Positions 9,820-52,876 of a stretch of DNA of 64,000 nucleotides are shown piece by piece. A program made the position numbers and the translations under genes. Where the stretch lies: positions 4,500 through 68,499 of the forward strand of contig JAJRYD010000029.1 of the NCBI GenBank assembly GCA_024275955.1, given 5' to 3'. Source of the stretch: Nitrospirota bacterium (GTDB lineage Bacteria; Nitrospinota_A; UBA7883; JACRGQ01). Positions within the stretch are counted from its first letter, which is position 1, and each line of letters starts with the position of its first letter. Under the pieces are notes generated by a model. The model made no database searches and was not told the origin of the DNA. It saw only the letters and a program-made list of their open reading frames with translations.

Positions 9820-10386
9820 ATGGGTCGGCTTAATTTATCTAACTTGCAGAAAGACGAGCGGATTTTGGCAAAGGTTCTTCTTAAAAACGACATTGTGGGC
9901 GAGGCGAGCCTTCAGCAGTATATGGACTTTAATAAGATACATGATGAGGTTGGCAAAGAATTTTTAGGCAAGATACTTATTCGGCTTGGCTACATCACCG
10001 AGGCCGACCTTGATCGGTACATACTTGAAAAGGAGAAGCCATACCTTGAGTTTTGCGAACTGCTTGTGAAGGATGGTTTTATAAAACCGGAGCAGTTTCA
10101 AGAGGTCAAAAGACGGCACGAAAGCGAAGGGCAGGATGTTTTGACGGCTGTCTCCGATATGAACATAATGACCAGAGATACGTTTGTGCGGAGCTTCAAT
10201 AATAAAATGTTCGGTTTAAGGCTTGGGGAATGGCTGAAGTTGAGCCAGAAAGTTACAGACGAGCAGATAGAAAAAGCCCGTGACGCACAAAAAGTTTACA
10301 CTCTTTCCGCTTACCTCATTCACAAGGGGCTTTGTTCCAAAGCGGTAATTGAGCAGGTAGAAGAAAAGATAGCGTTGGCTACATAA
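9820..10386 (+). CDS. Small protein built of tandem GspE-N/MshEN-like repeats (paralogue A); candidate c-di-GMP-binding adaptor
   Basis: It contains repeats such as LAKVLLKNDIVGEASLQQYM and FLGKILIRLGYITEADLDRYILEK, plus three further copies. These fit the MshEN/T2SSE_N pattern (R)LGxxLLxxGLLxxxxLxxxLxxQ. No ATPase domain is present. Confidence 0.5.
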   Translation: MGRLNLSNLQKDERILAKVLLKNDIVGEASLQQYMDFNKIHDEVGKEFLGKILIRLGYITEADLDRYILEKEKPYLEFCELLVKDGFIKPEQFQEVKRRHESEGQDVLTAVSDMNIMTRDTFVRSFNNKMFGLRLGEWLKLSQKVTDEQIEKARDAQKVYTLSAYLIHKGLCSKAVIEQVEEKIALAT

Positions 10387-10411
10387 ATTCTTATATAAGT
10401 GCGGAACGTTT

Positions 10412-11023
10412 GTGAACGAGTGCCGGGGGAATATTGAGATAAGTGGGGGAGTTATAAACGTGGCTGATCTGGATTTTGACGCGCTGGAAACAAAAGAAAA
10501 AAACCTAGCCAAAGTTCTATTAAAGAACAACCTGATGACCGAAGAGGTCTTTGGCAAATACCTTAAATTTAAAGAAGAGTGTGACGATATGGGCAAGCAG
10601 TCGCTTTGGAAAGTCCTTTTGCGTCTTGAGTATCTTACTCAAGGTGACCTAGATGAATATATTGAGGAGAGGAAAGAGCCGTACATACAGTTCTGCAAGA
10701 CGCTGGTTAACGACGGCTTTATGGAGCAGGAGCAGTGGGAGGCGGTTCAAGAGCAATGCAAGAACGGTAAAGAGATAGTGATGGCTTTGAGTGATGAGAA
10801 TGTAATGACGAGAGATAACTTTTTGCGTAGTTTTATACGTCATACAGGCGAGCCGAGATTGAGCGAATGGCTGGTTAGTAAAGCCAAGCTGACCGCTGAA
10901 CAGCTAAAGAACGCTAAAAAGCTTCAGCGCGAGTGCCGGTTATCCGATTTTTTAATTCAGCATGGTTTTTGCAAAGAGAATGTCGTGAGGAAGGTCGAGG
11001 AAAAGATAGCCGCCGTCAGCTAG
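10412..11023 (+). CDS. Paralogue B of the GspE-N/MshEN-like repeat protein
   Basis: It is colinear with paralogue A (LAKVLLKNNLMTEEVFGKYL.., LLRLEYLTQGDLDEYIEE.., ..KVEEKIAAVS). The two form a tandem duplication 26 nt apart. Confidence 0.5.
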   Translation: MNECRGNIEISGGVINVADLDFDALETKEKNLAKVLLKNNLMTEEVFGKYLKFKEECDDMGKQSLWKVLLRLEYLTQGDLDEYIEERKEPYIQFCKTLVNDGFMEQEQWEAVQEQCKNGKEIVMALSDENVMTRDNFLRSFIRHTGEPRLSEWLVSKAKLTAEQLKNAKKLQRECRLSDFLIQHGFCKENVVRKVEEKIAAVS

Positions 11024-17736: not shown

Positions 17737-18464
17737 CGGAAACTAACGGGAAAGATAAAAGAGAAGGACACCGCAAAAGGCTTAGAGAAAAGTTTTTAGA
17801 GCATGGCCTTGAAAAGTTTACCGACGAGGAGATAGTCGAGCTGTTGCTGACTCTTGCTACGCCGAGGAAAGACTGCAAGCAGGCGGCAAGGGAGGCATTA
17901 AAAACTTTTGGAACGCTCCGCAACGTGCTGGAGGCCGACCTCGATTCGTTGACGGAGATAAAAGATATAGGCCCTTCCAACGCTTTTGGCATTAAGTTTA
18001 TCCATCAGGTTACGAAAAAGTTTCTGCGCGACAGAATGATAGAGAAAAGGGCGTTTCATTCTTCCGATGACCTTCTTGACTATCTTAACCACTCTATGAG
18101 GTCGCTTAAGAGAGAGGTTTTTCAGATTATATATCTTGACGCGGTTGACAGGATAATTGACGAAGAAATCATAGCAGTAGGCACGGCGACGGAGGTGCCG
18201 GTCAGCCCCCAGCAGATAGTCGAGCGGGCGGTAAAGCGCGGCGCGGCGAATATTATGATAGCGCACAACCATCCGGGCGGCGAGGCGGAACCTTCGGAGG
18301 ACGATAAGGCTATGACGCGCGAAACGGTTTTTGTCTGCGGCATGATGAAGCTAAAGCTAAGGGAGCATGCGATTGTCGCTCCGCGCGGCCACTTTAGTTT
18401 TTCAAAGGAAGGTCTTATCGCCGAGTATGAGCATCAGCTCCGCAAGGTGCAAAAGAAGATTTAA
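17733..18464 (+). CDS. radC: RadC-like JAB/MPN domain protein (UPF0758)
   Basis: It has a helix-hairpin-helix N-terminus and a JAMM motif (HNHPGGEAEPSEDD). It overlaps the upstream gene by 4 nt. Confidence 0.8.
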   Translation: MTETNGKDKREGHRKRLREKFLEHGLEKFTDEEIVELLLTLATPRKDCKQAAREALKTFGTLRNVLEADLDSLTEIKDIGPSNAFGIKFIHQVTKKFLRDRMIEKRAFHSSDDLLDYLNHSMRSLKREVFQIIYLDAVDRIIDEEIIAVGTATEVPVSPQQIVERAVKRGAANIMIAHNHPGGEAEPSEDDKAMTRETVFVCGMMKLKLREHAIVAPRGHFSFSKEGLIAEYEHQLRKVQKKI

Positions 18465-19351
18465 CAAGTAGAGCTATCAGTTGTCTGCCTGATTTTTTCA
18501 GGTAGGGCAGGTAGGTCTTTTTCAGTCAGCAGGGCTAATCTAGCTTTTGGGGCGAAGGCATATCTTCCGACCCTTCTGATTGATAGTTTTATAAAGTCTT
18601 CCATCCATTTTTCTTCTCCAACCCCGAAGTCTCTTTTTGGATTTGCTTTTCTGGAGGTTTCTTCGTTTCCGACGACTGATGTGAGATACCCAAAGTCATT
18701 TAAAATGGTGAGGCTTATTTTAAATTTTCTGCTTGCTTTGCATCGGTTCTGTCGGTGGTGATCTTCCGCAATATCTTTGTTCTCGCAACTTTTTTTGTCG
18801 CATTTGCAGATATCACTGGCTTCTTTTTCCAAAATGGTTAGGCAGGTATAGCCGATATCGGTTAGGCGGGCACTCCCTTTTTTATAAGTTTCGAGTAGTT
18901 TAAGCATTATTCTTACTGTCGAAGAGAATTGGAATTTTTCAGGTGGTGAAGGGTAAGCTCCTGCTTGAATATTCCGCGACATTGGGCATTCTGCTGAGAC
19001 CGGCCGCCTCGTATACTGATGGGCTAAACTGCCATCGGCTCTCTCTTTTAGAATGCCGGCATTTTTATATTTAAATCTTGTCCCATAAAGATTATGTTTC
19101 AAAATGATTTCAGCTTCCCACGCTAGTACAAAATCTTTAACATGCGACTTGGCTTCCTCGATATCTTTAAAATATTTTTTGTCTTTGAATTGTATTGTCA
19201 ATTTTCCGTCGGTATGAGCTTCGTCTGTTTGTTCTAGGATGGCTGTAAAGTCTTCGTATTCCTTTATGATAGGTTCTGGATTGTCGAAAAGCATTGGGGA
19301 TGGTGTTAGCAGGCTGTACGTAAGCTTCTCGACATAAATAGTTTCAGCCAT
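18461..19351 (-). CDS. Hypothetical protein with a Cys cluster, encoded immediately downstream of hicB-hicA
   Basis: The 296-aa ORF has no recognisable domain. A Cys cluster (CKCDKKSCENK...C) is present. Its start codon abuts the hicA stop with no gap. It looks AT-richer than the flanks. Confidence 0.45.
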   Translation of the reverse strand: MAETIYVEKLTYSLLTPSPMLFDNPEPIIKEYEDFTAILEQTDEAHTDGKLTIQFKDKKYFKDIEEAKSHVKDFVLAWEAEIILKHNLYGTRFKYKNAGILKERADGSLAHQYTRRPVSAECPMSRNIQAGAYPSPPEKFQFSSTVRIMLKLLETYKKGSARLTDIGYTCLTILEKEASDICKCDKKSCENKDIAEDHHRQNRCKASRKFKISLTILNDFGYLTSVVGNEETSRKANPKRDFGVGEEKWMEDFIKLSIRRVGRYAFAPKARLALLTEKDLPALPEKIRQTTDSSTC

Positions 19352-27368: not shown

Positions 27369-27530
27369 TCAAAGTTTTAAATCAATCCTGCCTGAGCTTG
27401 ATTTGGTACTGAAAATTTCCTTGGCCATCTTGGATGCTATCTCTCTCGACTTGACCTTGTATTTTTTGTCGGCTATCTCTTTGCGGAACTTCTCGACCAG
27501 CTCCTTGCGTATTCCGCTTACCGGCGGCAC
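27369..27530 (-). CDS. flgM: FlgM-like anti-sigma-28 factor, 53 aa. This small gene is absent from the six-frame ORF track.
   Basis: The minus-strand ORF has a GTG start. It translates to VPPVSGIRKELVEKFRKEIADKKYKVKSREIASKMAKEIFSTKSSSGRIDLKL, which closely follows the FlgM C-terminal domain (for example B. subtilis ..[32 protein letters not shown]). A GGAGGG SD lies 7 nt upstream of the GTG. A sigma-28 -10-like CCGATAA lies about 70 nt upstream. Confidence 0.6.
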   Translation of the reverse strand: MPPVSGIRKELVEKFRKEIADKKYKVKSREIASKMAKEIFSTKSSSGRIDLKL

Positions 27531-27770
27531 TTAATTTCCCTCCAAAAAGAGATATCCCGGCAGGTTTTTACCTAATTCATCCAATACTTGCATAGATTTC
27601 TTATCGGGATTGCAGATATTTTTCATAAGGGTATAGTGATATAGGCTTTTAAAACAGCAAGTTAAGGCATTCTTCTGTGCTGGTTTTTCTGTTTTTCTTT
27701 TTTTGGAACGAGGTTTGCTCCTATCTTTGTTAAGTATAAAATATATAAGAACTTAAAACTGGATAGTGAT

Positions 27771-30700
27771 TTGACAAGAGAAAACAGTATCGACCCAGAT
27801 AGATATACAACCGGGCCGCCATCTTTAAACTCTGGCGGGCCTAGCGTTGTATCGGTCACAGGTACGGCTGGAGGAGCCGGGAAAACTACGTTGGCACTTT
27901 GCTCGGGGATAGCTGTAGCTTCGGCCGGGCATAGGGTGCTGGTGGTCGATTTAGGTTATTCCGGCGGCCGAATGCTTTCCCTGCTTGGGATGAGCCAGCC
28001 AGACCGAAACCTTCACAACTATTTTAAGAGATCCAAAACGCTTGAAGAGGTAATTATTTCGACCACTGTTCCGCACCTCTCTTTAATTCACGGTGGGGCA
28101 ATCTTGACCGATAGCTTTCAGGGAAAGCTTACCCGCATAAACCTTTTGAGGAACCTGAGGAAACTTCCGTTCGAGTTTATTTTTCTAGATCTCGGCATGT
28201 TGTGGAACAGCCAGAGGTCGGGGCTGTTTGCCTCATCGGATTACCGTATCGTAGTCGGCACGGAGGAAGAATCTACCTCCAGCGCGGTAGTACAGCTGGT
28301 TTCTTCTAACCTATTTTCAGAACTGGGTGACTATCCAAAGCTTACGAGAGAAGATAGGGAAAGCCTCGACGCTATTGAAAACAGATTTGCCTATAACCCA
28401 GATTTTTCCGTTTTGGGTGGTCAGTTGAAGGAGCAGGTACCACCACTAAAGGAAGAGTGGGAAAAGCTGTTTTCCGGCTATGAGGTAAATATTTTTTTAA
28501 ATAAGGTTTCCTCTCTTGATTACTTTAGGTTCTTAAAAATAGGCTACGAAGAATGTTTTAGAAATGCCTCGCTTAGCGGCTACCGCTTGCTACCGATTCC
28601 GAACTGTCTTTCATTTCCAGAAGATCTTTCCGCAATTTTGAACAGCTCGTTTTTTGCCGCTTGCCGCGGGTGGATTGTAGACCTTTTGGGGCTTGGTGGC
28701 AGGGAAAACGAAGATATTGAAGTGATTTTTTCTTCGGCGCAAGAGCTTTTAAAGGGCGGCCGCGTTTCGGCCGAAATTGCCGGTAAGCCTGTTGTAAAAA
28801 ACTTTGGGAACGAAGTGGAAAAAATTGACCGTGAGATGGAGCTGGTTCGCGCGGAGAAATTTGAAGCGGTCAACCGTGCTGTTGAAAAGAGTATGTTCGA
28901 TCGTAAAAAAGAGGCATCGCATAAACTTGAACTGGAAGCGGAAGAAAAGCGGTATGCCCTTAATGACGAAGTCGAAAACCAGAGGCGCAGATTTCAGCTT
29001 GAGATGGAGAGGGAAGCCGACATCCTAAGAGCCGAAAGAGACGCAAAACTCTCTATGGAGTTCAACGAGAAATCGGCACAATTTACCGAAGAGCTTTCCT
29101 TGATACGCGCGAGCAGGATAAAGGATATGGAAAGCCAGCTGGAGAAATATTATCCAAGCGCTAGAGCCGCCTTTGAAAACGAGATGAAGATGAAAAGAAA
29201 AAGGCGGGAGATGGAGATTGAAGACGAACTTCGCCTGCTGAAGAAAAAACGGTTAAGCAAAATCGAAAATGAGCTGGCGGTAGAAGTAGATAAGGTTCGT
29301 GAAATGATATGGCAGGAACTTGAAACAAAACGCGAAACGAGAATGTCTCAGATTGACGACAGAATCCACCAGTACAGAGAGGAAAAACGCAAAGAGGTGG
29401 ATAATGAGTTTAAGAAAAAGAAAAGTTTTCAGATCTCTAAACTTGACAAAGAGATAAGCGTTCGAAGGGAGAACCTTCTTATGGATATCTTTAAGGAAGT
29501 GATGGAGACTACGTCACTTTTAGATGAAGAAGAATATCAAAGAAAGGCGAAGCTACAAAGCCGCCTAAACGCGGAACTTTCAGAAGAGAGAGAGGCGGCG
29601 AAAGCGCGAATGCGCAAGGAAGTAGATAACTACCGCGACGAAAAGACGGCTGAAATTCTAAATCAGATAAGCGCGTTTAAAAAAGAAAAGATGGAAATGT
29701 TCAAAGGAGAGGTAGACGAACTTCGCGAAAGGCTTAAGGAAGAGGCGACCGAAGAGGCAGAAGATGTACGAAAAAAGATAATAAGTAAAACTTCCGCGAT
29801 TCTGAATAGAGAACGTATTGAACGGATGGAGAAAGTAGATAGAGAAATTCGTGCAATAAGAACATCTAGAGAGTTGTCGCTCGACAAGGAGATGACAAAG
29901 CTTGAAGACAAAATGAGAGGGGAAGTACACCACAGGATTATCGAAGAGGAAAAAAGGCTTGTCTCTATGCTTGAAAAAACCTTTTCAGACAGAAAGAAGG
30001 AAAAGGAAAATATACTGCGCGGCTTTCTAAAAACCGAACGGACAAAGAAAATTACCGAGCTCAATGATGATGTTAAAAAATTAAAACAGACAATGCTGGA
30101 AAATATTTCCAGTGAGATGGAGGTTGTTAAGGCTCTTCAGGTTGAGAATGTCGAAACAGAGGTTACCAGTATAAGGGAGGCGCGGCACAAAGAACTTGAA
30201 AAGGGCCTGCAGGATGAAATAAGAGAGAGGACAAGAGCTATCTCTTACGCGATTCGCGGCAAGGAATCTAAGCTTCGCACTGAAATGGCGGAGGGGGTAT
30301 CTAATGAGGAGGTGCGGTTGCGGGCGTTGATACATGAAAACCTGAAAGTAGAATCGAACGAACTGCGCAGAAAGATGCTAAGCAAACTGGCTAGTCAGGA
30401 AGACGAGCTGAGAACGCAAAGCAGGGTTGAAGTTGATAATGAAAAAAGCCGGAGGATGGACGAGCTGGAAAGAGAAATTGATTTGAAGAAAAGAGATGGC
30501 GCCGAACTGCTTGAAGGCTGGAACAGTAGGAAGAAAGCGGAGATGCTTCGCGATGTTATAGCTGGTATTAGTGAGGAGGAAAAGCTAAGGCGCGAGCTTA
30601 TGTCCTCGGAATTAGAGTACGAGATGAAAAACGAAAGGCGCAAACGGATGATTCGATTACAGCGGCTGGAGGAAGAAGAAAGAAAAAAGCTAAAGTTGCT

Positions 30701-31151
30701 TATCGAGCGAAGCAGGCTGTCCGCGACCAGCAAAATCAAGAAAATAGCACGCGAAGAATATCTCCGGCGGCTCGACTCGATGCAAGAGGAATTTAAGATG
30801 GAGAGGGAGAGCCGGCTTGAACTATTGATAAGGGATATTGACTCTGAAAAGAAAATTCAAATGAGCCGTATAGGTGAGACGATTTTAAGGAAAAAGGAAG
30901 ATGCTCTTTTAGAGCTTGAAAACGAGCTAATCGGGGTTAGGGCTAAAAAGCTGTCTGAGGTAGAAAGATATGTGGAAACTCAAGAAAGGAAAGTAGATGA
31001 AAGGCTCGACAAAAGATATTCCGAGCTTTTAAGGAAAAAAGATGAGTGGGTAGATTTTGAGGCGAGAAAGACAGCTATTAAAGCCAAGGAAAGATTGCAC
31101 GAGGAGCTTGAATCTGAAAAAGAGCGCTGGCTTCAGGGATACCTTGCGTAA
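27771..31151 (+). CDS. Giant protein (1126 aa): N-terminal ParA/MinD-superfamily P-loop ATPase-like domain fused to about 850 aa of continuous E/K/R-rich coiled coil
   Basis: The start codon is TTG. The P-loop reads VVSVTGTAGGAGKTTLAL followed by VLVVDLG, which is the ParA/MinD architecture but without the deviant-Walker-A signature lysine. Residues from about 330 to 1126 are heptad-like ERxxKE repeats. The gene ends at TAA 31149-31151, and the frame continues into 31185..31676. Confidence 0.7.
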   Translation: MTRENSIDPDRYTTGPPSLNSGGPSVVSVTGTAGGAGKTTLALCSGIAVASAGHRVLVVDLGYSGGRMLSLLGMSQPDRNLHNYFKRSKTLEEVIISTTVPHLSLIHGGAILTDSFQGKLTRINLLRNLRKLPFEFIFLDLGMLWNSQRSGLFASSDYRIVVGTEEESTSSAVVQLVSSNLFSELGDYPKLTREDRESLDAIENRFAYNPDFSVLGGQLKEQVPPLKEEWEKLFSGYEVNIFLNKVSSLDYFRFLKIGYEECFRNASLSGYRLLPIPNCLSFPEDLSAILNSSFFAACRGWIVDLLGLGGRENEDIEVIFSSAQELLKGGRVSAEIAGKPVVKNFGNEVEKIDREMELVRAEKFEAVNRAVEKSMFDRKKEASHKLELEAEEKRYALNDEVENQRRRFQLEMEREADILRAERDAKLSMEFNEKSAQFTEELSLIRASRIKDMESQLEKYYPSARAAFENEMKMKRKRREMEIEDELRLLKKKRLSKIENELAVEVDKVREMIWQELETKRETRMSQIDDRIHQYREEKRKEVDNEFKKKKSFQISKLDKEISVRRENLLMDIFKEVMETTSLLDEEEYQRKAKLQSRLNAELSEEREAAKARMRKEVDNYRDEKTAEILNQISAFKKEKMEMFKGEVDELRERLKEEATEEAEDVRKKIISKTSAILNRERIERMEKVDREIRAIRTSRELSLDKEMTKLEDKMRGEVHHRIIEEEKRLVSMLEKTFSDRKKEKENILRGFLKTERTKKITELNDDVKKLKQTMLENISSEMEVVKALQVENVETEVTSIREARHKELEKGLQDEIRERTRAISYAIRGKESKLRTEMAEGVSNEEVRLRALIHENLKVESNELRRKMLSKLASQEDELRTQSRVEVDNEKSRRMDELEREIDLKKRDGAELLEGWNSRKKAEMLRDVIAGISEEEKLRRELMSSELEYEMKNERRKRMIRLQRLEEEERKKLKLLIERSRLSATSKIKKIAREEYLRRLDSMQEEFKMERESRLELLIRDIDSEKKIQMSRIGETILRKKEDALLELENELIGVRAKKLSEVERYVETQERKVDERLDKRYSELLRKKDEWVDFEARKTAIKAKERLHEELESEKERWLQGYLA

Positions 31152-31184
31152 AGTAATTTAGAGAAAGAGCATCTTCGCTCCAAG

Positions 31185-31676
31185 ATGCTGGAAGAGATTA
31201 AAGACGAAAAGAAGAAAATGCTCGCGGAGGCTATGGAGTCGGTCGACATTGAGAGAGAAAAACGCTTTCTGGAGATAACGGAAAGCCTGCATGGTGAAAG
31301 CAGAAAGGAGCGAGAGTCTCTCTATAAGAAGCTGGAGCTTTGGGAGCTGGAGCGCAAAGGCGAGATAGAGAGTGAGCTTGACGAGGAAAAAGAAAAACGG
31401 CTTGAAGCTTTTGAAAGAGAAATGCAGATAGAGCGCAACAGAAAAATGGAGCAGATGCGTGTCGAGATTAAGACCGAGGAGTATTCCAAACGGCAGGAGA
31501 TACTTTCTGAAATAATGCAGAGAAAGTCGGAGCTTGATAACTTTTATCAGAATGAGAAAAAGAAATATCTTGAAAGACTGCAAGATGAAATTTTAAAGGA
31601 AGGACAAAAGGGTAGAGCGCCGGAAATTCTTCAAGACGAGATCGAAAGGCTTCAACGCAAATGGCGGATGAACTGA
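31185..31676 (+). CDS. Coiled-coil protein (163 aa), in the same frame as the giant upstream gene and separated from it only by one TAA plus 33 nt with no stop
   Basis: It has the same E/K/R-rich heptad composition (ERKGEIESELDEEKEKRLEAFEREMQIERNRKMEQ). It may be the C-terminal continuation of 27771..31151, disrupted by a nonsense codon. Confidence 0.5.
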   Translation: MLEEIKDEKKKMLAEAMESVDIEREKRFLEITESLHGESRKERESLYKKLELWELERKGEIESELDEEKEKRLEAFEREMQIERNRKMEQMRVEIKTEEYSKRQEILSEIMQRKSELDNFYQNEKKKYLERLQDEILKEGQKGRAPEILQDEIERLQRKWRMN

Positions 31677-32162
31677 CCGGCAATAGGCCACGGATAGGCA
31701 AGGTATTCGGCTCTTAATCTTTAGACGGCAATATCTTAGAGAACCTGCGCTCAGCTCGCTTATGATCGAGTTTGCCAAGAAGGATGCCGGAAATAATGTA
31801 AACGGGCAGTTACACAGAATTATTTACAGGGTCTTTTTTTGTCGTACATTTTTAGTTTTTATAAACTTCTGTTTTTGCCTTTAGGCGCGCGTACGCAGGC
31901 AGTTCGTTAATTTTTCGCAAAACTACCCCTCCAGTTCCCCGCCTGCGGTCTCTACCGTTTTGACAGCCACTAGGAGTTTTCTTAAATTTTTTTTGCGTCT
32001 CTCTTGAGTTGATAGAGAAGTGAACCTCTTGCTCCTTATTTTTAAACCGTACGACAATGCAGACGGTAATGAGTTTACAAGCGTATTTTCAGTTATTTAT
32101 TCTTTAAAGCGACTTTAAGTGATTGCCTGTAAATAGTCGTCGTGGTAATGTAACTCCCTTAT

Positions 32163-39564: not shown

Positions 39565-39860
39565 TGCATAAGGAAGATATTTTAGATAGCCTTAAATCGG
39601 TTATCGACCCAGAACTCGGCATAAACATAGTCGATTTGGGTTTGATCTATAATGTTAATGTCAGCGGTAACGACGTTTTTGTTACGATGATGATGACTTC
39701 ACAGGCTTGCCCGATGGGAGACCTCCTTAAAATCGAAGTGGTTGATGCCATCAGGAAGATTTTTCCGTCCGCGGGAAAGGTAGAAGCAGTTCTTACGGTA
39801 GATCCGCCGTGGACAAACGAAATGATGTCGGGCGACGCAAGGAAACAGCTTGGACTCTAA
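39564..39860 (+). CDS. DUF59 / MIP18-family Fe-S cluster assembly protein (SufT/PaaD-like)
   Basis: It carries the motif LKSVIDPELGINIVDLGLIY...MTSQACPMG. Confidence 0.8.
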   Translation: MHKEDILDSLKSVIDPELGINIVDLGLIYNVNVSGNDVFVTMMMTSQACPMGDLLKIEVVDAIRKIFPSAGKVEAVLTVDPPWTNEMMSGDARKQLGL

Positions 39861-39868
39861 AGGTTTCG

Positions 39869-40954
39869 ATGTTCCTTTATAAAGTAAGGTTTCCTCTGCT
39901 TGCTGTCGGTCTGCTCTCGCTTATCGGCGCGCTCTACTCCGGCCTTATAAGGCTCGGTTTCGATCTGCCGTTTATACATTTCGATTTACCGGAGGCGCAT
40001 GGGCCTCTTATGATTGCCGCCTTTCTCGGTACCGTGATAGGGCTGGAAAGGGCTGTAGCGCTAGAGACACCGTGGGGTTATCTATCTCCGCTTCTTGCCG
40101 GTGTTGGCGGTCTGCTGGCATTGCTTGGTGTTTCTAACGGTGCGCCGCAGTTACTTATCTTTCTTTCGAGCATAGTTCTTATCTTGATGTATGCCGTAGT
40201 TCTAAAGCGGCAGTTAGAGTTTTTTAATGTCATCATGGCGCTTGGCGCTGTCTCTCTTTTTATCGGAAACCTTCTCTGGCTATCCGGCGAGCCTATATAC
40301 AACTTTGTGCTTTGGTGGGTAGCGTTTCTTGTGCTGACGATAGCGGGAGAGAGGCTGGAATTAAGCCGTGTGCTTAGCCATAGCAAAAATATTCTCTCTT
40401 TATTTTCTGTTGCTGTTGCTGTTTTTCTTTTAGGTATTGCGTTAGAGCGGTTCTTGCCCGGCATCGGTGTGCGGATAGCAGGCGTTGGTATGATTTTCAT
40501 TTCGCTCTGGCTACTCACCTTCGGTGTTGCAAGAGTTACGGTAAGGCAGAAAGGCCTTACACGGTATGTGGCTGTCTGTCTTTTGGCCGGCTACTTTTGG
40601 CTGATAATCGGCGGAGCTATAGCGGTAGTTGCCGGCGAGCTGGAGCCGGGCTTTGTGTACGACGCATTCTTGCACGCACTCTTTTTAGGCTTTACATTTA
40701 CCATGATTTTCGGGCATGCGCCGATAATCTTTCCGGCGGTATTGCGGATTCCTGTTCCGTATAGAGCCGGCTTTTATTCGCACCTTCTGCTTTTGCATGT
40801 TTCGCTTTCGCTTAGAGTAGGCGGCGATATCTTTGACCTTGACGAACTGCATGTATGGGGAGGGGTCGGCAACGTGGCGGCTCTTATACTATTTCTCGTC
40901 AACACAGTTTCATCGGTTGTAAGAGGTCTTCTGGCAAAACCTGCTAAGGGGTAA
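39869..40954 (+). CDS. Polytopic integral membrane protein of unknown function
   Basis: About ten hydrophobic helices are present. I placed the start at the ATG 8 nt after the DUF59 stop, because the longer ORF overlaps DUF59. Confidence 0.5.
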   Translation: MFLYKVRFPLLAVGLLSLIGALYSGLIRLGFDLPFIHFDLPEAHGPLMIAAFLGTVIGLERAVALETPWGYLSPLLAGVGGLLALLGVSNGAPQLLIFLSSIVLILMYAVVLKRQLEFFNVIMALGAVSLFIGNLLWLSGEPIYNFVLWWVAFLVLTIAGERLELSRVLSHSKNILSLFSVAVAVFLLGIALERFLPGIGVRIAGVGMIFISLWLLTFGVARVTVRQKGLTRYVAVCLLAGYFWLIIGGAIAVVAGELEPGFVYDAFLHALFLGFTFTMIFGHAPIIFPAVLRIPVPYRAGFYSHLLLLHVSLSLRVGGDIFDLDELHVWGGVGNVAALILFLVNTVSSVVRGLLAKPAKG

Positions 40955-41077
40955 AGGGGGGGCTGGTCTGCTTTGTTCGTTCATCCAGCTTCAAGCGGTA
41001 AGCTGGATTTTCTCTCATATTTGCTGATAAACTTACCGCGTGGCTGTTAAGGAAATAGTATAAGGGAATAAAGAAGT

Positions 41078-42331
41078 ATGAGCCAGAATTTACGACCGAT
41101 AATCGAGCGCTATAAAAAGGATGGGGAGGCTGTTTATAACACTTGGTTTGTAAATAACGACGAGCGTCTCAAAGCGTTTCGTTCTATTAGGAGAGGCGTG
41201 CAGGATGTTATACGGGATATAAAAGAGAAAAATTTTGGGAATGACTTTAAAGGCTCTTCACTGGAGTTTGTCTTAAACTGTATTACAGAGCAAAAACAGG
41301 TTTTCATCGGCGCTTCGCATCCGTTTTACTGGAAACCGAAATTACGCATTCCTGATATTTATGAAAATGAGGATAACAAAGCCGCATTTGGACAATTTCT
41401 GGAAAACTGCCATAATTCCATCAGTGAAGAACAAATCTTAAAGGAAATAATTTTACTTAATCAGCGTAAGATTAAAGGTCTTGGTCCGGCCGTGGCCAAC
41501 ATCTTGTATTTTCTGCACCCAACGATAATTCCGCCTTTCAACACAGCTATAGTGAACGGCTTCAATCGCCTTTTTAAAGAAAAAATAAGACTGGGGTCAT
41601 GGGATGAATATCGGAAAATGCGCGCTGTTATTATGCATACAAATGCCGCCTTCAAGAATGATTTATCGAGCGATCTGGGCGCAATTTCCGGGTTTTTGTT
41701 TGATATCGGTGTTGGAAAAATTCATATCGGTGATGAACATACGCTTTCAGAAAAAGAAAAAACCAAAATTGAAAAGATGGTTAAAAACCGTCACCGCAAG
41801 GTAGTGGCGGAAAATGAAGAGGAAGATATCCATACAGAGATGCAGTACCATCTCTTAAAGATTGGCAATTCACTTGGCTATGATGTTATTAGCGCCTCAA
41901 ACGATAGGGCAAAATGCCATAAGGGTAAAAGTTTTTCTTTTATAAGCCTACCAAGCTTTCCTAAATTAGATGTTGGTGTTGATAAAGATACATTCAAAAC
42001 TATAGCTTTGATTGACGCTGTCTGGTTTAAAAAAGGCTCGAACAACATTGTATGTGCGTTTGAAGTGGAAAAGAGTACTTCCATCTATTCAGGAATTTTA
42101 AGATTAAAAGATTTATTCTATACATTTCCTAATAACCGACCGACGCTTTACTTGGTTATTCCCGACAATAGGGAAAAAGAGGTGATGCTACAATTAAACC
42201 GGCCGGCAATCAAAAATGGCGAAGTTGAAGTACGCTATATATTATTTTCCGATTTGAAACTGCATTGTGATTCAATATGCAAACTTGGGGAAAATAAAGA
42301 GATTATGAAAAAAATAGCCAAGGGTCTGTAG
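41078..42331 (+). CDS. Hypothetical protein with a C-terminal PD-(D/E)xK nuclease-like motif; candidate stand-alone defence or restriction-type nuclease
   Basis: A D...ExK core is present (TIALIDAVWF...12 aa...CAFEVEKSTSI). The N-terminal part has an HhH-like IKGLGPAVANILYFLHP. The gene is monocistronic, between a membrane-protein gene and lgt. Its composition is visibly AT-richer than the neighbours. Confidence 0.4.
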   Translation: MSQNLRPIIERYKKDGEAVYNTWFVNNDERLKAFRSIRRGVQDVIRDIKEKNFGNDFKGSSLEFVLNCITEQKQVFIGASHPFYWKPKLRIPDIYENEDNKAAFGQFLENCHNSISEEQILKEIILLNQRKIKGLGPAVANILYFLHPTIIPPFNTAIVNGFNRLFKEKIRLGSWDEYRKMRAVIMHTNAAFKNDLSSDLGAISGFLFDIGVGKIHIGDEHTLSEKEKTKIEKMVKNRHRKVVAENEEEDIHTEMQYHLLKIGNSLGYDVISASNDRAKCHKGKSFSFISLPSFPKLDVGVDKDTFKTIALIDAVWFKKGSNNIVCAFEVEKSTSIYSGILRLKDLFYTFPNNRPTLYLVIPDNREKEVMLQLNRPAIKNGEVEVRYILFSDLKLHCDSICKLGENKEIMKKIAKGL

Positions 42332-45704: not shown

Positions 45705-47975
45705 GTGTCCGCCCAAATAATTGAAAAACTCGATAAGCTCGCTATGCACCTTATGATGATAGACGAGTATCTTGGCGATCTTTTGCAGACCTCTGAAGCT
45801 AGTAGCATGGCTGACGAAGTTAAGGTACTGCTCGCCTCTACAGAACCACTCCAGCTTGTCGGTATTTTTGATGGAGTTTCTCAGCTGTTCGAAAAATTTC
45901 TGCTCGATTCCAGCTCCGGTAAAGGCCCTGACGCAATAAGACTTACTAATGAAGGGATAAATATTGTCAAAGATGTGCTTGGCGGAACCTCCGCTTTTGA
46001 GGACGTAAAAGATAAGTTCAATGCTCTTATCGGAGAGTTTAAGTCGGTTTTCGAAATTGAAGTTGAGGTTTTCCCTGTAGGGTCTGGCAGTGTGCCGCCT
46101 GCGCCGAAAAAGCCGGTAGAAACAGTGCCTCCTAAAGAGGAAGCCAAAGCAGATGGTGAAGGTAAGCGTACAGAGCTGGTTCTTCTGGACGAAAACGATG
46201 TCGAAATTTTCGATGGTTTTCTTGAGGAATCTTCTGAAAGTTTAGGAAAGGTGGAGGATTACCTTATCGAGCTTGAAGAAGACGCGAAGAATATGGAGAT
46301 AGTAAACTCTCTGTTTCGGATTTTTCACAGCCTTAAAGGCGCGGCCGGTTTTCTTGGTATGACCGAGGTAAACTTTCTTTGCCACCAGACCGAAAACATG
46401 CTGGATCAGGCCCGCAAGTCTATGCTCGATATTGATGCCGAGGTAATAGACATACTTCTTGCTTCAAAGGATTTGCTTGAAAAGGGGCTTCATTTTCTTC
46501 ACGACTTACTTAGCGAAGGAAGGGAAAAGCTTCCTAACTTTAGGGGAGAGTGCGACCCACTTGATGTTAAGCCGATAGTGGAGCTTATCGACAGGAAGCT
46601 TTACCTCGCTTCTATGGAAGATGATGACGATACGGGGCCTCCGAAGCTTGGACAGATTTTAGTAGAGCAAAAAGCGGTTTCCCCCGCGAAGCTGGAAGCG
46701 GCGCTGACCCAAAAATCGAAGCCTGTTGGTGAAGTTCTTGTCGAGATGGGGGTTCCAAGAAAAGATGTAGATAAAGCTGTTGCCACACAAGGCGCGAAAA
46801 AGAAAGAGTTCAAATCCTCCTCTGTCAAAGTAGACACTTCTAAGCTGAACATTTTGCTGGACCTTGTGGGTGAGCTTGTTATTTCGCAGTCGATTATTTC
46901 GCAGAATAAGGCTCTTGCCTCAGACACGAACGCGCGGCTTTCTAAGGATATTTCGGAGATGGCCAAAATTACCGACGGGATACAGGATCATATAATGAGC
47001 CTTAGAATGGTGCCGTTAAAGCAGACTTTCGGCAAAATGAATAGGCTGGTAAGAGACCTTTCTAGGAAAACCAATAAGCGTGTAACTCTTGAAGTAGATG
47101 GGGAAGATACCGAAATAGATAAAACCATAGTAGACCAGCTAAACGACCCGCTTGTGCATATCCTTCGGAATTCGGTTGATCACGGCATAGACACTGTGGA
47201 GGAGAGAATCGCCGCCGGCAAAAGCCCCGAAGGTACCGTTACCTTAAGCGCTTACCACAAAGGCGGTAACGTCGTAATAGAAATCAAGGACGACGGGAGA
47301 GGCTTGAACCTTGCGAAGCTGAAGGCAAAAGGTGTTGAAAAAGGCTTTTTTACCTAAGACGGAGAATACAGTGATGAGGAGCTTATAGAGGTAATCTTCA
47401 GGCCGGGGCTTTCTACCCACGCGGTAGCGACAGACCTTTCTGGCCGAGGTGTCGGTATGGATGTGGTGAGGAGAAATGTCGATAGCCTTGGCGGGCGTGT
47501 GGAAGTTCAGACGGTTTTGGGGGAAGGTAGCACCTTTCTTATCAGGCTTCCTCTTACGATGGCTATCGTCGATGGTATGTTAGTGCAGGTTGGAAGCGAG
47601 AGATATATAATCCCTACCATATCAATCAGCGAGTCTATAAGGCCAAAAGCGGAGCAGTTTACGAGGGTTATTGGAAAGGGCGAGATGCTCAATGTAAGGG
47701 GAGAGATGATACAGCTGGTACGCCTGCACGATCTTTTTGGAATACAAAACGGAGATAAGGATATTTCCGAAAGTCTTGTTATAATTGTCAACACTGATAA
47801 CGACAAAAGAGGTCTTTTGGTAGATGATCTGTTGGGCCAGCAACAGGTGGTGATTAAAAACCTCGACAAACGGTTGCAGGGGATAAAAGGTTTTTCAGGC
47901 AGTTCCATACTGGGTGACGGGCTTGTTGGCCTTATCCTTGATATCGGCGGTATTTTTAAGTTGGCTTCTTCGTGA
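45705..47975 (+). pseudogene. cheA: Chemotaxis histidine kinase CheA (copy 1) interrupted by a single in-frame TAA at 47355-47357
   Basis: ORFs 45705..47357 and 47457..47975 are in the same frame, with no other stop between them. The join (..EKGFFT*DGEYSDEELIEVIFRPGLST..GRGVGMDVV) aligns with the intact paralogue (..EKGVLNQAQGSAMSDEEVFNLIFHPGFST..GRGVGMDVV). Domains present are a roughly 170-aa N-terminal extension, P1 Hpt (FHSLKGAAG), P3, P4 HATPase (HILRNSVDHGID) and P5 CheW-like. Confidence 0.7.
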
Positions 47976-48043
47976 ACTGCTTTGGTGTATAATGGAGCGG
48001 ATTCGGGTTTCTCTAGGATTGATAGTTTTGTTAGGAGGTAGAG

Positions 48044-48577
48044 ATGGAAGAATTAGCTGACACTAATAAGTCGTCGGTAGAAACGGCAAATGCCAAAATA
48101 CAGTCCTCCGATGCTAATAGTCAGGAGGGGAAGTATCTTACCTTTGTTCTGTCTGACGAGGAATATGGGCTGGAAATTTTAAAAGTCCGTGAAATTATTA
48201 GTGTTATGGAAATCACTGAGGTGCCTCAGGTACCAGACTATATAAAAGGTGTCATCAATCTTAGGGGCAGGGTTATCCCTGTTATAGACCTCAGGCTGAA
48301 GTTTGGGATGCCGGCGATAGAGTATACCCGTGAGACCTGCATAATCGTGGTAAATGTACTTGATATTCTTCTTGGAATTGTTGTTGATACCGTTGCGGAG
48401 GTGTTGGATATCTCGTCGGCAGATATCGACCCATCTCCGGCTTTTGGAGGTTCTGTCGATACCGACTTTATTCTTGGTATGGGGAAGGTGAAGGGAAAAG
48501 TTAAGATACTTCTCGATATTGACAGAGTACTGTCTGTAGCCGAATTGGAAACGGTAAGGCAGGCCGATTCTACTTAG
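48044..48577 (+). CDS. cheW: Chemotaxis coupling protein CheW
   Basis: It is a single CheW-like domain (YLTFVLSDEEYGLEILKVREI...VINLRGRVIPVIDLR). Confidence 0.9.
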   Translation: MEELADTNKSSVETANAKIQSSDANSQEGKYLTFVLSDEEYGLEILKVREIISVMEITEVPQVPDYIKGVINLRGRVIPVIDLRLKFGMPAIEYTRETCIIVVNVLDILLGIVVDTVAEVLDISSADIDPSPAFGGSVDTDFILGMGKVKGKVKILLDIDRVLSVAELETVRQADST

Positions 48578-48705
48578 GCATAGAATACTGTTTTTAGGTG
48601 ACGGCAAGGCTCTTTTGTCGAGAAGGTCGGGTTTGTCGTTGTTTTCATGCTGTAAAGCCGGGTTCGTTGAGCTTTGCTTTAAGCGAGTAGAAATTAAATT
48701 ATAAA

Positions 48706-49581
48706 ATGAGTCTTTTTTCGTCAGCAACAGGTGGTCATCTGAAAGCAGAATTAAAAGATCTTACTGATGAAGACTTTGATCTTTTCCGCCGTCTCATTTA
48801 CGAACAGTCCGGTATTTCACTAAATGATACCAAGAAGGAACTGCTACGCACAAGGCTCCGCTCCAGGCTGATAAGGGAGGGGTATAGGTCGTACAGGGAG
48901 TACTACAGCTTTATAAAAAAAGACCAGACAGGCAATGCGATAGTGCCTCTGCTTGATGACATTTCGACGAACCTCACTTCGTTTTTTCGGGAAATAAACC
49001 ATTTCAGTTTTCTTGATACCGTTATCCCCAAGATGATAGCCGAAAAGGAAAAGAAGCGCGACAGCACTTTTCGTATATGGAGTGCCGGCTGTTCGTCGGG
49101 GGAGGAGGTCTACTCACTTCTTTTTACGATGCAGGCTCATTTAAAGAACAAAAAACCGGAGTGGAACCTTAAGATGCTCGCTACCGATATTTCGACAGAT
49201 ATACTCCAAAAAGCTAGCAACGGACTCTACGATGTAAAACGAGTGGACGCAGTGCCGCCGTATATGGTTAAGAAATATTTTGTAAAAGAGCTTGGCCCTA
49301 AAGGCAGAGAGATGATGCGTATCAAGCCGGAATATAGGCAGATTGTTACTTTCCGAAGATTTAACCTAATGACAGAAAACTTTCCATTTAAGCATCAGTT
49401 CGACTATATTTTCTGCCGCAATGTTATGATCTACTTCGATAAGCCGACACAGGAGGTTCTGGTGTCCAAATATCACAAACTTTTAAAGCCCAACGGATAC
49501 CTTTTTATCGGGCATTCTGAGAGCCTGACAGGGCTTAATCATAGTTTTAGGTACGCCCAGCCTACGATTTACCAAAAATAG
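48706..49581 (+). CDS. cheR: Chemotaxis methyltransferase CheR (second copy)
   Basis: It has the CheR N-terminal domain and the SAM-binding domain (IWSAGCSSGEEVYSL). Confidence 0.9.
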   Translation: MSLFSSATGGHLKAELKDLTDEDFDLFRRLIYEQSGISLNDTKKELLRTRLRSRLIREGYRSYREYYSFIKKDQTGNAIVPLLDDISTNLTSFFREINHFSFLDTVIPKMIAEKEKKRDSTFRIWSAGCSSGEEVYSLLFTMQAHLKNKKPEWNLKMLATDISTDILQKASNGLYDVKRVDAVPPYMVKKYFVKELGPKGREMMRIKPEYRQIVTFRRFNLMTENFPFKHQFDYIFCRNVMIYFDKPTQEVLVSKYHKLLKPNGYLFIGHSESLTGLNHSFRYAQPTIYQK

Positions 49582-49862
49582 AAGCATGGGATACAAGTTG
49601 CGCGAAATACGGAATTTTCATCTGGAAGCTATCGCTTCTCTATTTTTAAAGTGTAAAGATTTTTTCCAATATTATATAAATAATCATAGTTCAATAGTGG
49701 TTATGATTGCTAGAATGACTGACCGATAGGTTTACTTAAGATATAATTTTAGAAGTATGGGTGCCTTTGACAGTTAGCTGGAAAGGACGGATTGTAGCTA
49801 AGTATAAATGTTTAAAAACTCTTTGTTAAATTTGTTGCAAAGTATCGCTGGGGAGTCTTGGT

Positions 49863-52871: not shown

Positions 52872-52876
52872 CTTAA

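What the first reader, a model, noticed from the sequence alone, without database searches (positions are those of the whole stretch)
27771..31676. Giant ParA/MinD-like P-loop protein fused to about 850 aa of coiled coil, with an in-frame coiled-coil continuation
The first roughly 300 residues have ParA/MinD topology. The P-loop reads VTGTAGGAGKTT, so the deviant-Walker-A signature lysine is replaced by Ala. The rest of the protein is an uninterrupted E/K/R-rich heptad coiled coil. Translation appears to start at TTG. The downstream 163-aa ORF has the same composition and the same frame; only one TAA plus 33 stop-free nucleotides separate them. I do not recognise this architecture (ATPase plus myosin-like rod) as a described family. 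A divergent FlgM-like gene and the nearby chemotaxis clusters suggest a role in positioning flagella or chemoreceptor arrays, comparable to FlhG/MinD, ParC/PpfA or PomZ-type systems, possibly acting as a cytoskeletal scaffold.
Basis: partly seen in the sequence, partly recalled or inferred. Interest (0 to 1): 0.75.

Follow-up and report, generated by a model that had tools for sequence, protein, structure and literature searches.

The report
MinD-like head on a 15-residue-repeat rod
The two reading frames are one rare, unannotated gene for a protein of about 1,300 residues: a degenerate MinD/FlhG-type nucleotide-binding head joined to a helical rod of about 140 nm whose hydrophobic pattern repeats every 15 residues rather than every 7, which would make it an unusually long right-handed coiled coil and a candidate new bacterial cytoskeletal or tether protein.

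Summary
The two ORFs, the P-loop, the shared frame and the single TAA are all as described. Four relatives from metagenomes and MAGs (1,158-1,332 aa) align end to end with the fused 1,301-aa translation. The TAA falls inside homologous sequence, opposite D/E/A/E, and the 163-aa ORF carries the family's conserved C-terminus (…WRxN). So this is one gene with one in-frame stop, most simply GAA>TAA, either real or an assembly error.

The head (aa 1-330) folds as MinD/FlhG/ParA. The whole family lacks the signature lysine and the catalytic Asp of Walker A', but keeps GK[ST] and the Walker B Asp.

The rod is not a heptad coiled coil. In all five proteins the hydrophobic period is 3.75 (15/4). In the window there are 61 pentadecads in one fixed register from aa 374 to 1301, running across the TAA. 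Indels between relatives are 11, 56 or 75 residues, which preserves the phase.

No Pfam, NCBIfam, PDB or PADLOC family covers the rod, and homologues are annotated hypothetical.

The flagellar or chemoreceptor link is weak. A mini-FlgM neighbour is shared only with a syntenic lineage, and the che genes lie at least 14 kb away.

Best reading: a homo-oligomeric right-handed coiled-coil tether with a nucleotide-binding docking head. The anatomy is solid; the function is inferred.

The parts
27735..27740 (+). TATAAA, a -10-like box 31-36 nt upstream of the TTG start
   Evidence: A TATAAT-like box lies 25-36 nt upstream of the start in L003/L005, L006 and L007, with a less clear ATAAT about 40 nt upstream in L002. 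It rests on consensus matching only and is not a shown promoter.
27771..31151 (+). ORF1, 1126 aa, TTG start: the head plus the first 778 aa of the rod, ending at the in-frame TAA
   Evidence: Collinear with P0005, P0031, P0008 and the L002 protein.
27771..28760 (+). MinD/FlhG/ParA-type P-loop head, aa 1-330
   Evidence: Pfam AAA_31 and CbiA above cut-off. Sequence search of the PDB gives FlhG 4rz3 at E 1e-7. AF2 model pLDDT 80. Foldseek top matches are FlhG, FleN, ParA, Soj and MinD.
27855..27890 (+). Walker A, VTGTAGGAGKTT: GKT is kept and the signature Lys is replaced by Ala33
   Evidence: Relatives have G, G, N or T at this position. Conventional relatives have K in at least 90%.
27936..27956 (+). 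Walker A'/switch I, VLVVDLG: Gly62 stands where FlhG has the catalytic Asp60
   Evidence: In the alignment to 4rz2 (LDMDIG) and to 4rz3, the D60A mutant (LDMAIG), Gly62 takes that position. The position is not conserved in the family: G, N, N, R, D.
28176..28196 (+). Walker B, FIFLDLG: Asp140 and Gly142 are invariant
28761..28814 (+). Linker, aa 331-348, between head and rod
   Evidence: Modelled with low confidence (pLDDT below 50 for aa 335-345) and as non-helical. Length varies among relatives.
28815..31148 (+). Rod, part 1 (aa 349-1126): alpha-helical, with 15-residue repeats in one register from aa 374
   Evidence: AF2 predicts helix throughout apart from four breaks that are not conserved.
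29196..29378 (+). Most conserved stretch of the rod (aa 476-536; ...ELAVEVDKVREMIWQELE...)
   Evidence: 21 invariant columns fall in aa 481-540 of the five-protein alignment. This motif was also used as the metagenome search pattern.
31149..31151 (+). In-frame TAA (codon 1127), in the Glu-preferring column 4 of the pentadecad
   Evidence: It aligns with D/E/A/E in the relatives. TAA is an ordinary stop codon here, used by 18 of 46 genes. GAA is the commonest of the codons counted in the gene (121).
31152..31184 (+). 11 stop-free in-frame codons (SNLEKEHLRSK) that join the two ORFs
   Evidence: Homologous to the relatives.
31185..31676 (+). ORF2, 163 aa: rod part 2 plus the conserved C-terminal helix
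   Evidence: Same register (positions 2 and 13 of index mod 15 are 89% hydrophobic). Same conservation as before the stop: 71% against 71% at columns invariant in the relatives, and 33% against 33% identity.
31623..31673 (+). C-terminal element EILQDEIERLQRKWRMN, set off by the rod's only recurrent G/P columns (G in 3 of 5 proteins at aa 1281, P in 2 of 5 at aa 1284)
   Evidence: W1298, R1299 and N1301 are invariant. G/P columns.
27369..27530 (-). Divergent 53-aa mini-FlgM-like gene. It is a neighbour; it has not been shown to be part of the system.
   Evidence: Pfam FlgM 29.1 bits against a cut-off of 25. 70% identical to the L006 copy, and L009 encodes an equivalent 59-aa FlgM-like gene. Adjacent to the giant gene in L009, 8 kb away in L006, absent from L002 and L003.

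Best explanation
Window 27771-31676 is a single gene for a cytoplasmic protein of about 1,301 aa. In this assembly it is interrupted by one TAA, most simply a GAA>TAA change that is either recent and real or a consensus error.

The protein has three parts:
1. A MinD/FlhG-fold P-loop head. It keeps the nucleotide-binding residues (GK[ST], Walker B Asp) but has lost the signature Lys and the Walker A' catalytic Asp. It probably binds nucleotide and turns it over slowly or not at all.
2. About 930 residues of unbroken alpha-helix carrying a 15-residue (15/4 = 3.75) hydrophobic repeat, that is, a right-handed pentadecad coiled coil about 135-140 nm long.
3. A conserved C-terminal helix ending in WRxN.

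Inferred mechanism: the rods pair or bundle through the a/e seam into a stiff homo-oligomer. This holds the heads together at one end and presents the conserved C-terminal peptide about 140 nm away, so the protein acts as a cytoskeletal tether, spacer or filament. The head serves as a docking module that may be gated by nucleotide, not as a ParA-type oscillator. The conserved non-ATG start suggests low copy number.

Shown: the gene structure, the fold class of the head, the motif losses, the periodicity, register and continuity of the rod, and the rarity of the family. Inferred: oligomerisation, handedness, nucleotide behaviour and cellular role.
For: One gene:
- End-to-end collinear alignment with P0005, P0031, P0008 and the L002 protein. 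The TAA lies opposite D/E/A/E, and the C-terminus of the 163-aa ORF is the family C-terminus.
- No loss of conservation after the stop.
- Register and phase are unchanged across it.
- TAA is the commonest ordinary stop codon in the window.

Head:
-.
- Motif losses hold across the family, whereas the conventional sister clade keeps K33, D62, N67 and H69 in at least 90% of sequences.

Rod:
- Period 3.75 with z 13-18 and nothing at 3.5, in all five proteins.
- Autocorrelation peaks at 15, 30... 120 residues.
- Global coherent power 9.7-12.4, against a maximum of 1.7-2.7 in 300 shuffles.
- 61 rows of 15 residues, with column 1 hydrophobic in 74% and column 5 in 82%.
- Indels between relatives are 11, 11, 11, 56 and 75 aa, all of which preserve the phase.
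- 0-2 Pro per rod of about 950 aa, and no conserved G/P column before aa 1281.
- A periodicity of 15/4 means right-handed supercoiling as pronounced as the left-handedness of heptad coils (PMC4786415).
- A heptad control behaves as expected.

Structural or adaptor role:
- The sister clade of the head is fused to MreB, RodZ-type HTH_25, DnaJ, TPR, PilZ and CheR modules.
- The gene stands alone behind a conserved -10-like box, and no partner gene is conserved next to it.
Against: - There is no experimental or multimer-model evidence for oligomerisation or handedness.
- The full-length AF2 monomer model is poor (pLDDT 56.5) and shows four helix breaks.
- Only two of the four core positions per pentadecad are strongly hydrophobic, so the seam is sparse.
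- Losing the signature Lys does not prove inactivity. Type 1 McdA lacks it and is highly active, probably using a distal Lys (PMC7182216). The head has two other invariant basic residues (K89, R130) whose role is unknown.
- Genomic context gives no direct clue to function.
- In this organism the protein may be truncated at residue 1126.
Confidence: 0.5

Rival explanations
1. This is an FlhG/MinD-like positioning factor for flagella or chemoreceptor arrays. The head would act like FlhG at the pole or C-ring, and the rod would scaffold or space the structure.
For: FlhG and FleN are the top or near-top matches to the head, by sequence and by fold. A mini-FlgM gene is the divergent neighbour in the window and in L009. 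A FliN-like (FliMN_C) gene lies 1.4 kb upstream in L007. The window holds che genes.
Against: - With the family profile, the BY-kinase BceF outranks FlhG, so the head is generically MinD-like.
- All NCBIfam hits are far below their cut-offs.
- There is no DQAxxLR-type N-terminus.
- No flhF or other flagellar structural gene was found among the ORFs scanned in the window, about 55 of them.
- The FlgM neighbour travels with a whole syntenic block (HDOD, Lactamase_B_2, DUF502) and is absent from L002 and L003/L005.
- The che cluster is at least 14 kb away.
- The sister clade of the head points to MreB and RodZ as much as to anything flagellar.
Confidence: 0.17
2. The TAA is genuine, and in this organism the gene is a recent pseudogene or makes a truncated 1126-aa protein that lacks the conserved C-terminus. 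The 163-aa ORF would be silent or weakly re-initiated.
For: The stop is in the sequence. All neighbouring proteins are found in the public protein collection from a 108-kb NCBI contig, but neither ORF product is, as would be expected if the locus had been flagged as disrupted. No good Shine-Dalgarno box precedes the ATG at 31185, and an 8-bp hairpin covers that ATG.
Against: There is no second lesion in the 174 downstream codons, and no drop in conservation or register, so any inactivation must be very recent. The absence from the collection could equally come from a different gene call or from masking. A single substitution is also what a consensus error or strain polymorphism would look like.
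Confidence: 0.4
3. The stop is read through by design, or the gene is naturally split into two polypeptides that assemble through the rod.
For: The downstream part is fully conserved and in register. An ATG lies 33 nt after the stop. A hairpin lies 17 nt downstream of the TAA.
Against: All four relatives encode one uninterrupted frame. From general knowledge, TAA is the stop least prone to readthrough. The hairpin is not significant (z -1.6). There is no ribosome-binding site before the ATG.
Confidence: 0.08
4. The tail is not a coiled coil. It is either a single charged alpha-helix (ER/K type) or a set of helices folded back into a compact bundle.
For: 49% of rod residues are charged. AF2 breaks the monomer helix at about aa 461, 581-586, 734-749 and 906-935. 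Only columns 1 and 5 are strongly hydrophobic.
Against: Opposite-charge pairs at i,i+4 are not enriched (z 1.4). 28% of residues are strongly hydrophobic, and they lie on one seam. One register holds over 880 residues, and the phase-preserving indels would not be needed in a folded bundle. The AF2 breaks carry no conserved G/P, and that model is low-confidence.
Confidence: 0.15

Closest known systems
FlhG/FleN and MinD (PDB 4rz2/4rz3, 5j1j, 1g3q, 3q9l)
   Same: Same fold and Pfam domains. P-loop GK[ST] and Walker B Asp are present. Among the best matches by sequence (E 1e-7 to 1e-11) and by Foldseek (E 4e-10).
   Different: No signature Lys. Gly stands at the catalytic Asp (FlhG D60). No FlhF-activating N-terminus. 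In place of a C-terminal amphipathic membrane helix there is a 950-aa rod. No flhF, minE or minC neighbour. All NCBIfam scores are 5-10 times below the cut-offs.
BY-kinase catalytic domains (BceF 6z0p, CapB, Wzc)
   Same: Best PDB hit of the family profile (E 7.5e-13). BY-kinases also have a Walker A without the signature Lys (general knowledge).
   Different: No DxDxR Walker A', no DxxP Walker B (FIFLDLG instead), no C-terminal tyrosine cluster, no transmembrane activator and no polysaccharide genes (sequence).
Type 1 McdA (Synechococcus elongatus), a ParA-type ATPase without the signature lysine
   Same: A precedent for a ParA/MinD-family member that lacks the signature Lys (PMC7182216).
   Different: McdA is a protein of about 250 aa that acts on the nucleoid with a separate coiled-coil partner (McdB), keeps Walker A', and is a very active ATPase. 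Here Walker A' is also degenerate and the coiled coil is fused in cis.
Pentadecad right-handed coiled coils (VASP tetramerisation domain; right-handed stalk segments of trimeric autotransporter adhesins)
   Same: A 15-residue repeat with 3.75 residues per turn (PMC4786415; reference lists).
   Different: From memory, the known examples span tens of residues and are extracellular or eukaryotic. Here there are about 61 consecutive repeats (about 930 aa) in a cytoplasmic bacterial protein with an NTPase head.
Scy/FilP/crescentin-type bacterial coiled-coil cytoskeletal proteins
   Same: Very long, non-canonical coiled-coil rods that serve as structural elements. From memory, Scy/FilP use a hendecad-based 51-residue repeat; they appear (PMC9858780).
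   Different: No sequence similarity. A different periodicity. None has a P-loop head.
SMC/MukB/Rad50, and kinesin or myosin, as 'NTPase head plus long coiled coil' machines
   Same: The general plan: a nucleotide-binding head on a rod more than 100 nm long.
   Different: A different head class (ABC or motor fold, against SIMIBI MinD-like). Heptad rods. SMC rods fold back at a hinge so that the N- and C-terminal half-heads meet, whereas here the whole head is N-terminal and the C-terminus is a short peptide.

Membership tests
ParA/MinD (deviant Walker A) ATPases | MinD/ParA alpha/beta fold and Pfam CbiA/AAA_31 domain | tested here: met
ParA/MinD (deviant Walker A) ATPases | Signature lysine of KGGxxGK[ST] | tested here: not met
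   The window has Ala33. The relatives have G, G, N and T. K is present in at least 90% of conventional relatives.
ParA/MinD (deviant Walker A) ATPases | Walker A'/switch I catalytic Asp (MinD D40, FlhG D60) | tested here: not met
   Gly62 aligns with FlhG D60. The position is variable in the family.
ParA/MinD (deviant Walker A) ATPases | P-loop GK[ST] and Walker B Asp | tested here: met
   G37, K38, D140 and G142 are invariant.
ParA/MinD (deviant Walker A) ATPases | ATP-dependent sandwich dimer and partner-stimulated hydrolysis | not testable with these tools
   Needs biochemistry.
FlhG/FleN | N-terminal FlhF-activating motif (DQAxxLR) and a position beside flhF in a flagellar operon | tested here: not met
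   The N-terminus reads MTRENSIDPDRYTTGPPSLNSGG. The neighbours are the FlgM-like gene, DUF5674, DUF502 and transketolase. The motif definition is taken from the abstract of 10.1101/2022.03.19.484964.
FlhG/FleN | C-terminal amphipathic membrane-targeting helix directly after the ATPase domain | tested here: inconclusive
   The domain runs through a linker into the rod. No separate terminal helix exists at that point, and membrane binding was not assessable.
BY-kinases | Walker A' DxDxR, Walker B DxxP, C-terminal Tyr cluster | tested here: not met
   The sequence reads VDLGYSG, FLDLG and ...WRMN at the C-terminus.
Canonical heptad coiled coils (myosin-like or SMC-like rods) | Hydrophobic periodicity of 3.5 residues | tested here: not met
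   z is -1 to -2.4 at 3.5 in all five proteins. The tropomyosin control gives z 7.9 at 3.5.
Pentadecad (15/4) right-handed coiled coils | Hydrophobic repeat of 15 residues over 4 turns, held in register | tested here: met
Pentadecad (15/4) right-handed coiled coils | Knobs-into-holes packing with right-handed supercoil in an oligomer | not testable with these tools
   Only monomer prediction was available. It needs multimer modelling or a solved structure.
ER/K single alpha-helices | Dense i,i+4 E-K/R pairs and very few hydrophobic residues | tested here: not met
   The i,i+4 pairs give z 1.4, and 28% of residues are LIVMFWY.
Anti-phage defence ATPases / mobile elements | A match to a defence family, or a viral or mobile context | tested here: not met
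   PADLOC gave no hit for the full protein and one insignificant hit for the head (E 0.004). No viral relatives. The chromosomal synteny is conserved.

The most novel reading that the evidence does not exclude
The family is a previously unrecognised kind of bacterial cytoskeletal element: a nucleotide-binding MinD-like head permanently attached to the longest continuous right-handed (pentadecad) coiled coil so far seen, about 60 repeats and about 140 nm. It would work as a fixed-length tether or ruler between whatever the head docks to and a partner bound by the conserved C-terminal WRxN peptide. Length would be adjusted in evolution only in steps of 3 or 4 helical turns.
Probability: 0.35. 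Interest if true: 0.85.

Novelty: new variant of a known kind. Interest (0 to 1): 0.68.

Why it matters
Coiled-coil specialists know 15/4 periodicity only from short segments (from memory). Five divergent natural proteins that keep about 60 pentadecads in one register, with indels limited to 11 or 15 residues or sums of these (56, 75), would be an unusual test bed for right-handed coiled-coil design and mechanics.

For bacterial cell biology, ParA/MinD ATPases normally act on coiled-coil partners in trans (McdB, PomX and the like). A fusion in cis, with catalytic residues lost, points to a different, static use of this switch domain. It comes from a poorly studied, probably Nitrospinota-related, uncultured lineage.

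The finding also corrects the annotation. Two 'ORFs' and a 'BcsQ' label are in fact one gene of an unnamed family.

Tried and rejected
- Word-indexed homology searches with the head, the full alignment and the head alignment returned only ordinary MinD-like proteins, or nothing. The family was reached only through the exhaustive HMMER search and the metagenome pattern scan.
- The genome-contig scan gave one irrelevant Pelagibacter MinD.
- Exact look-ups of the window's own proteins in the gene-position index failed. The organism is therefore inferred only indirectly: the L002 transketolase clusters with a 'Nitrospinota bacterium' protein, and the window's neighbours are 61-72% identical to L002/L006.
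- Rfam and tRNA scans of the window found nothing.
- No viral relatives and no significant defence-system match.
- PDB sequence searches of the rod found nothing.
- The full-length AF2 model is too poor to use for fold search, and the afdb50 library was unavailable.
- Promoter and terminator consensus scans around the gene were uninformative.
- The hairpin after the TAA is not significant.
- No sigma-28 promoter precedes the FlgM-like gene. There is only a common 7-mer, with 18 copies in the window.
- The apparent in-frame 31-aa ORF upstream of the FlgM-like gene is coincidental, because the L006 homologue is also a stand-alone 59-aa protein.
- A literature search found no description of this architecture.

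Full report
**1. What is in the sequence**

ORF 27771..31151 (+, 1126 aa, first possible start TTG) and ORF 31185..31676 (+, 163 aa) are real. They share a frame and are separated only by TAA (31149-31151) and 11 sense codons. The P-loop reads VTGTAGGAGKTT (27855-27890). Residues 346-1301 of the fused translation are 20% E, 12% K, 12% R, 0.2% P and 1.8% G.

**2. One gene, not two**

An exhaustive HMMER search of 1.84 billion representative proteins with the head found three proteins with the same architecture among its 150 best hits: P0005 (1298 aa), P0008 (1158 aa) and P0031 (1320 aa). A metagenome scan added an uninterrupted 1332-aa gene on L002.

- All four align collinearly with the fused 1,301-aa window translation.
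- The TAA column lies inside homologous sequence, opposite D/E/A/E.
- The 163-aa ORF ends with the family's conserved C-terminus...RLQ+xWRxN.
- At columns invariant in the four relatives, the window agrees at 71% both before and after the stop. Identity to each relative is the same on both sides.
- The 15-residue register runs straight through the stop.
- TAA is the commonest normal stop in the window (18 of 46 genes), and GAA is the commonest of the codons counted in the gene.

The simplest origin is therefore a single GAA>TAA change. Whether it is a real recent nonsense mutation or a consensus error cannot be decided here. Neither ORF product is in the public protein collection, although eight neighbouring proteins from the same 108-kb NCBI contig are.

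**3. The start codon**

Relatives begin at the aligned position with TTG (L003/L005, L006; probably L002) or GTG (L007). L003, L006 and L007 have an AGGAG box in front. A TATAAT-like box lies 25-36 nt upstream in four loci, and a less clear ATAAT lies about 40 nt upstream in L002.

**4. The head**

- Pfam AAA_31 and CbiA pass their gathering scores. NCBIfam gives only far sub-threshold hits to BY-kinase, MinD, CpaE, ParA and BcsQ models.
- The best PDB sequence matches of the single protein are FlhG (4rz3/4rz2), archaeal MinD, CapB and FleN. With the family profile the order is BceF (a BY-kinase), FlhG, MinD, FleN.
- An AF2 model built on a 52-sequence alignment (pLDDT 80.4, pTM 0.80) matches FlhG, FleN, ParA, Soj, MinD, McdA, HypB and BcsQ, all with probability 1.0.
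- So the head is a generic MinD/ParA-fold domain, and it is degenerate. Ala33 replaces the signature Lys; the relatives have G, G, N and T there.
- Gly62 sits where FlhG has Asp60. This is visible because 4rz3 is the D60A mutant. The position is not conserved in the family.
- The conventional sister proteins keep K33, D62, N67 and H69 in at least 90% of sequences.
- GK[ST] and the Walker B Asp are invariant.
- FlhG D60A abolishes hydrolysis but still allows ATP binding (PMC7226244). I therefore infer nucleotide binding with little turnover.
- One caveat: type 1 McdA lacks the signature Lys yet is very active, probably through a distal Lys (PMC7182216).

**5. The rod is pentadecad, not heptad**

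- Local Fourier analysis of LIVMFWY positions gives z = 15.7 at period 3.75 and z = -1.6 at 3.5 in the window. The values are 13-18 and about -2 in the four relatives. A tropomyosin control peaks at 3.5 with nothing at 3.75.
- Autocorrelation peaks fall at 15, 30, 45 ... 120 residues, with side peaks at 15k+11.
- The phase of the 3.75 wave stays within about 0.8 residue from aa ~380 to 1260.
- Whole-rod coherent power is 12.4, against a maximum of 1.9 in 300 shuffles.
- Written in rows of 15 from aa 374, the window protein gives 61 rows in one register. Column 1 is hydrophobic in 74% of rows and column 5 in 82%. Columns 8/9 and 12/13 are partly hydrophobic. Columns 4 and 8 are acidic in about 52% of rows, and columns 9-13 are basic.
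- The TAA occupies the Glu-preferring column 4.
- Indels between relatives within the rod are 11, 11, 11, 56 and 75 residues, that is, whole numbers of 3- or 4-turn units that keep the seam in phase.
- Each rod of about 950 aa has 0-2 prolines. No G/P column recurs before aa 1281, just ahead of the conserved terminal helix.
- Opposite-charge pairs at i,i+4 are not enriched, which argues against an ER/K single helix.
- A periodicity of 15/4 implies right-handed supercoiling as marked as the left-handedness of heptad coils (PMC4786415).
- A continuous helix of aa 374-1301 would be about 139 nm long.
- The monomer AF2 model of ORF1 is poor (pLDDT 56.5). It predicts helix for aa 349-1125 with four breaks that are not conserved.

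**6. Conservation**

The rod (28-50% pairwise identity) is more conserved than the head (21-36%). Two stretches stand out: aa 476-536 (...ELAVEVDKVREMIWQ[QE]LE...) and the last 70 residues. Even so, the protein evolves far faster than its syntenic neighbours, which are 61-72% identical between the window, L002 and L006.

**7. Context**

- Around the gene, the window encodes HDOD, Lactamase_B_2, DUF502, DUF5674, a divergent 53-aa FlgM-like gene, the giant gene, a split transketolase, an ORF at the position of the CTP_transf_like (CoaD-like) gene of L006, and an aminotransferase at the matching position.
- L009 and L006 (the P0031 lineage) share this block. FlgM is adjacent in L009 and 8 kb away in L006.
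- L002 shares only the downstream part.
- L007 has DksA-like, RpoZ, DUF1844 and FliN-like genes upstream.
- L005 and L008 show unrelated genes.
- No partner gene is conserved. No flagellar structural gene was found among the window ORFs scanned. The che cluster lies at 45.7-55.4 kb.
- The conventional sister clade of the head is a promiscuous module fused to MreB, RodZ-type HTH_25, DnaJ, TPR, PilZ, CheR or GYF domains. This fits an adaptor or localisation role in general.
- The lineage is probably Nitrospinota-related. This is inferred.

**8. Interpretation**

The anatomy is well supported. The function is inferred: a homo-oligomeric right-handed coiled-coil tether or filament, with a nucleotide-binding docking head at one end and a conserved peptide at the other. 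The flagellar or array-positioning idea remains possible but has only weak, lineage-confounded support. No described family covers the rod or the whole architecture. The only names given by sources are 'hypothetical protein' and 'BcsQ'.

**9. Verdict**

This is a real feature. It is a new architectural variant within the ParA/MinD superfamily, with an exceptional pentadecad rod. Interest 0.68.

Noticed in passing
window 27369-27530 (-); L006 1975-2154 (-); L009 4116-4295 (-): These are 'mini-FlgM' genes of 53-59 aa, about half the usual FlgM length by my recollection. The window copy passes the Pfam FlgM cut-off at 29.1 bits. The L006 copy passes only marginally (25.6 against 25) and is 70% identical to the window copy; L009 carries an equivalent 59-aa FlgM-like gene. 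All sit directly after the DUF502 gene. An apparent in-frame 31-aa ORF upstream in the window is coincidental.
   Followed up: partly
window 27601-27607 (-): A CCGATAA 7-mer, resembling a sigma-28 -10 element, lies upstream of the FlgM-like gene. No TAAA-N14-17 partner is present, and the 7-mer occurs 18 times in the window, so it is not evidence for a sigma-28 promoter.
   Followed up: yes
window 27735-27740; L003, L005, L006, L007 (25-36 nt upstream of the start); L002 (about 40 nt): A TATAAT-like box and a non-ATG start codon (TTG four times, GTG once) recur upstream of the giant gene in every lineage. This suggests an own promoter and weak translation initiation.
   Followed up: partly
window 31168-31189: An 8-bp hairpin (AGCATCTT-CGCTCC-AAGATGCT) lies between the TAA and the ATG of the 163-aa ORF, and covers that ATG. 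The folding z-score is -1.6, which is not significant.
   Followed up: yes
window 31677-32162: A 486-nt stretch without a plausible ORF lies between the giant gene and the split transketolase. It has no Rfam match at gathering threshold.
   Followed up: partly
window 45705-55397 and 3860-4735: A chemotaxis cluster with three Hpt-bearing CheA-like ORFs (one with a truncated HATPase domain, one made of Hpt plus CheW only), two CheW, CheR, CheB and a response regulator. A second CheR sits beside a multihaem cytochrome and a HEAT-repeat protein at the start of the window.
   Followed up: no
P0006, P0009, P0071, P0098, P0020, P0028, P0011, P0037, P0013; L011 363-1953: The conventional MinD-like clade closest to the head (GGGKGGVGKS ... 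GGANLH) is fused to, or followed by, RodZ-type HTH_25, MreB, TPR, PilZ, CheR, DnaJ or GYF modules. It is an unnamed, modular MinD subfamily: all NCBIfam hits fall below their cut-offs.
   Followed up: partly
L003 431, L005 480, L008 30: In three listed independent assemblies the P0008-type gene starts within 30-480 nt of a contig end. This suggests a repeat or mobile element just upstream that breaks assemblies.
   Followed up: no
L006 2407-9871: An 8-kb insertion separates the FlgM-like gene from the giant gene in L006, compared with L009. It holds two methyltransferases, a GT9 glycosyltransferase, two radical-SAM/B12 genes and a 531-aa gene of unknown function.
   Followed up: no
window 61119-62372 (-), 62654-63997 (-): A phage-type integrase gene lies next to a T2SSE/PilB-type secretion ATPase at the end of the window. 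This may be the edge of an integrated element.
   Followed up: no
window 9820-11023, 18461-19351 (-), 39809-42331: Five ORFs of 188-417 aa have no Pfam match at the thresholds used.
   Followed up: no
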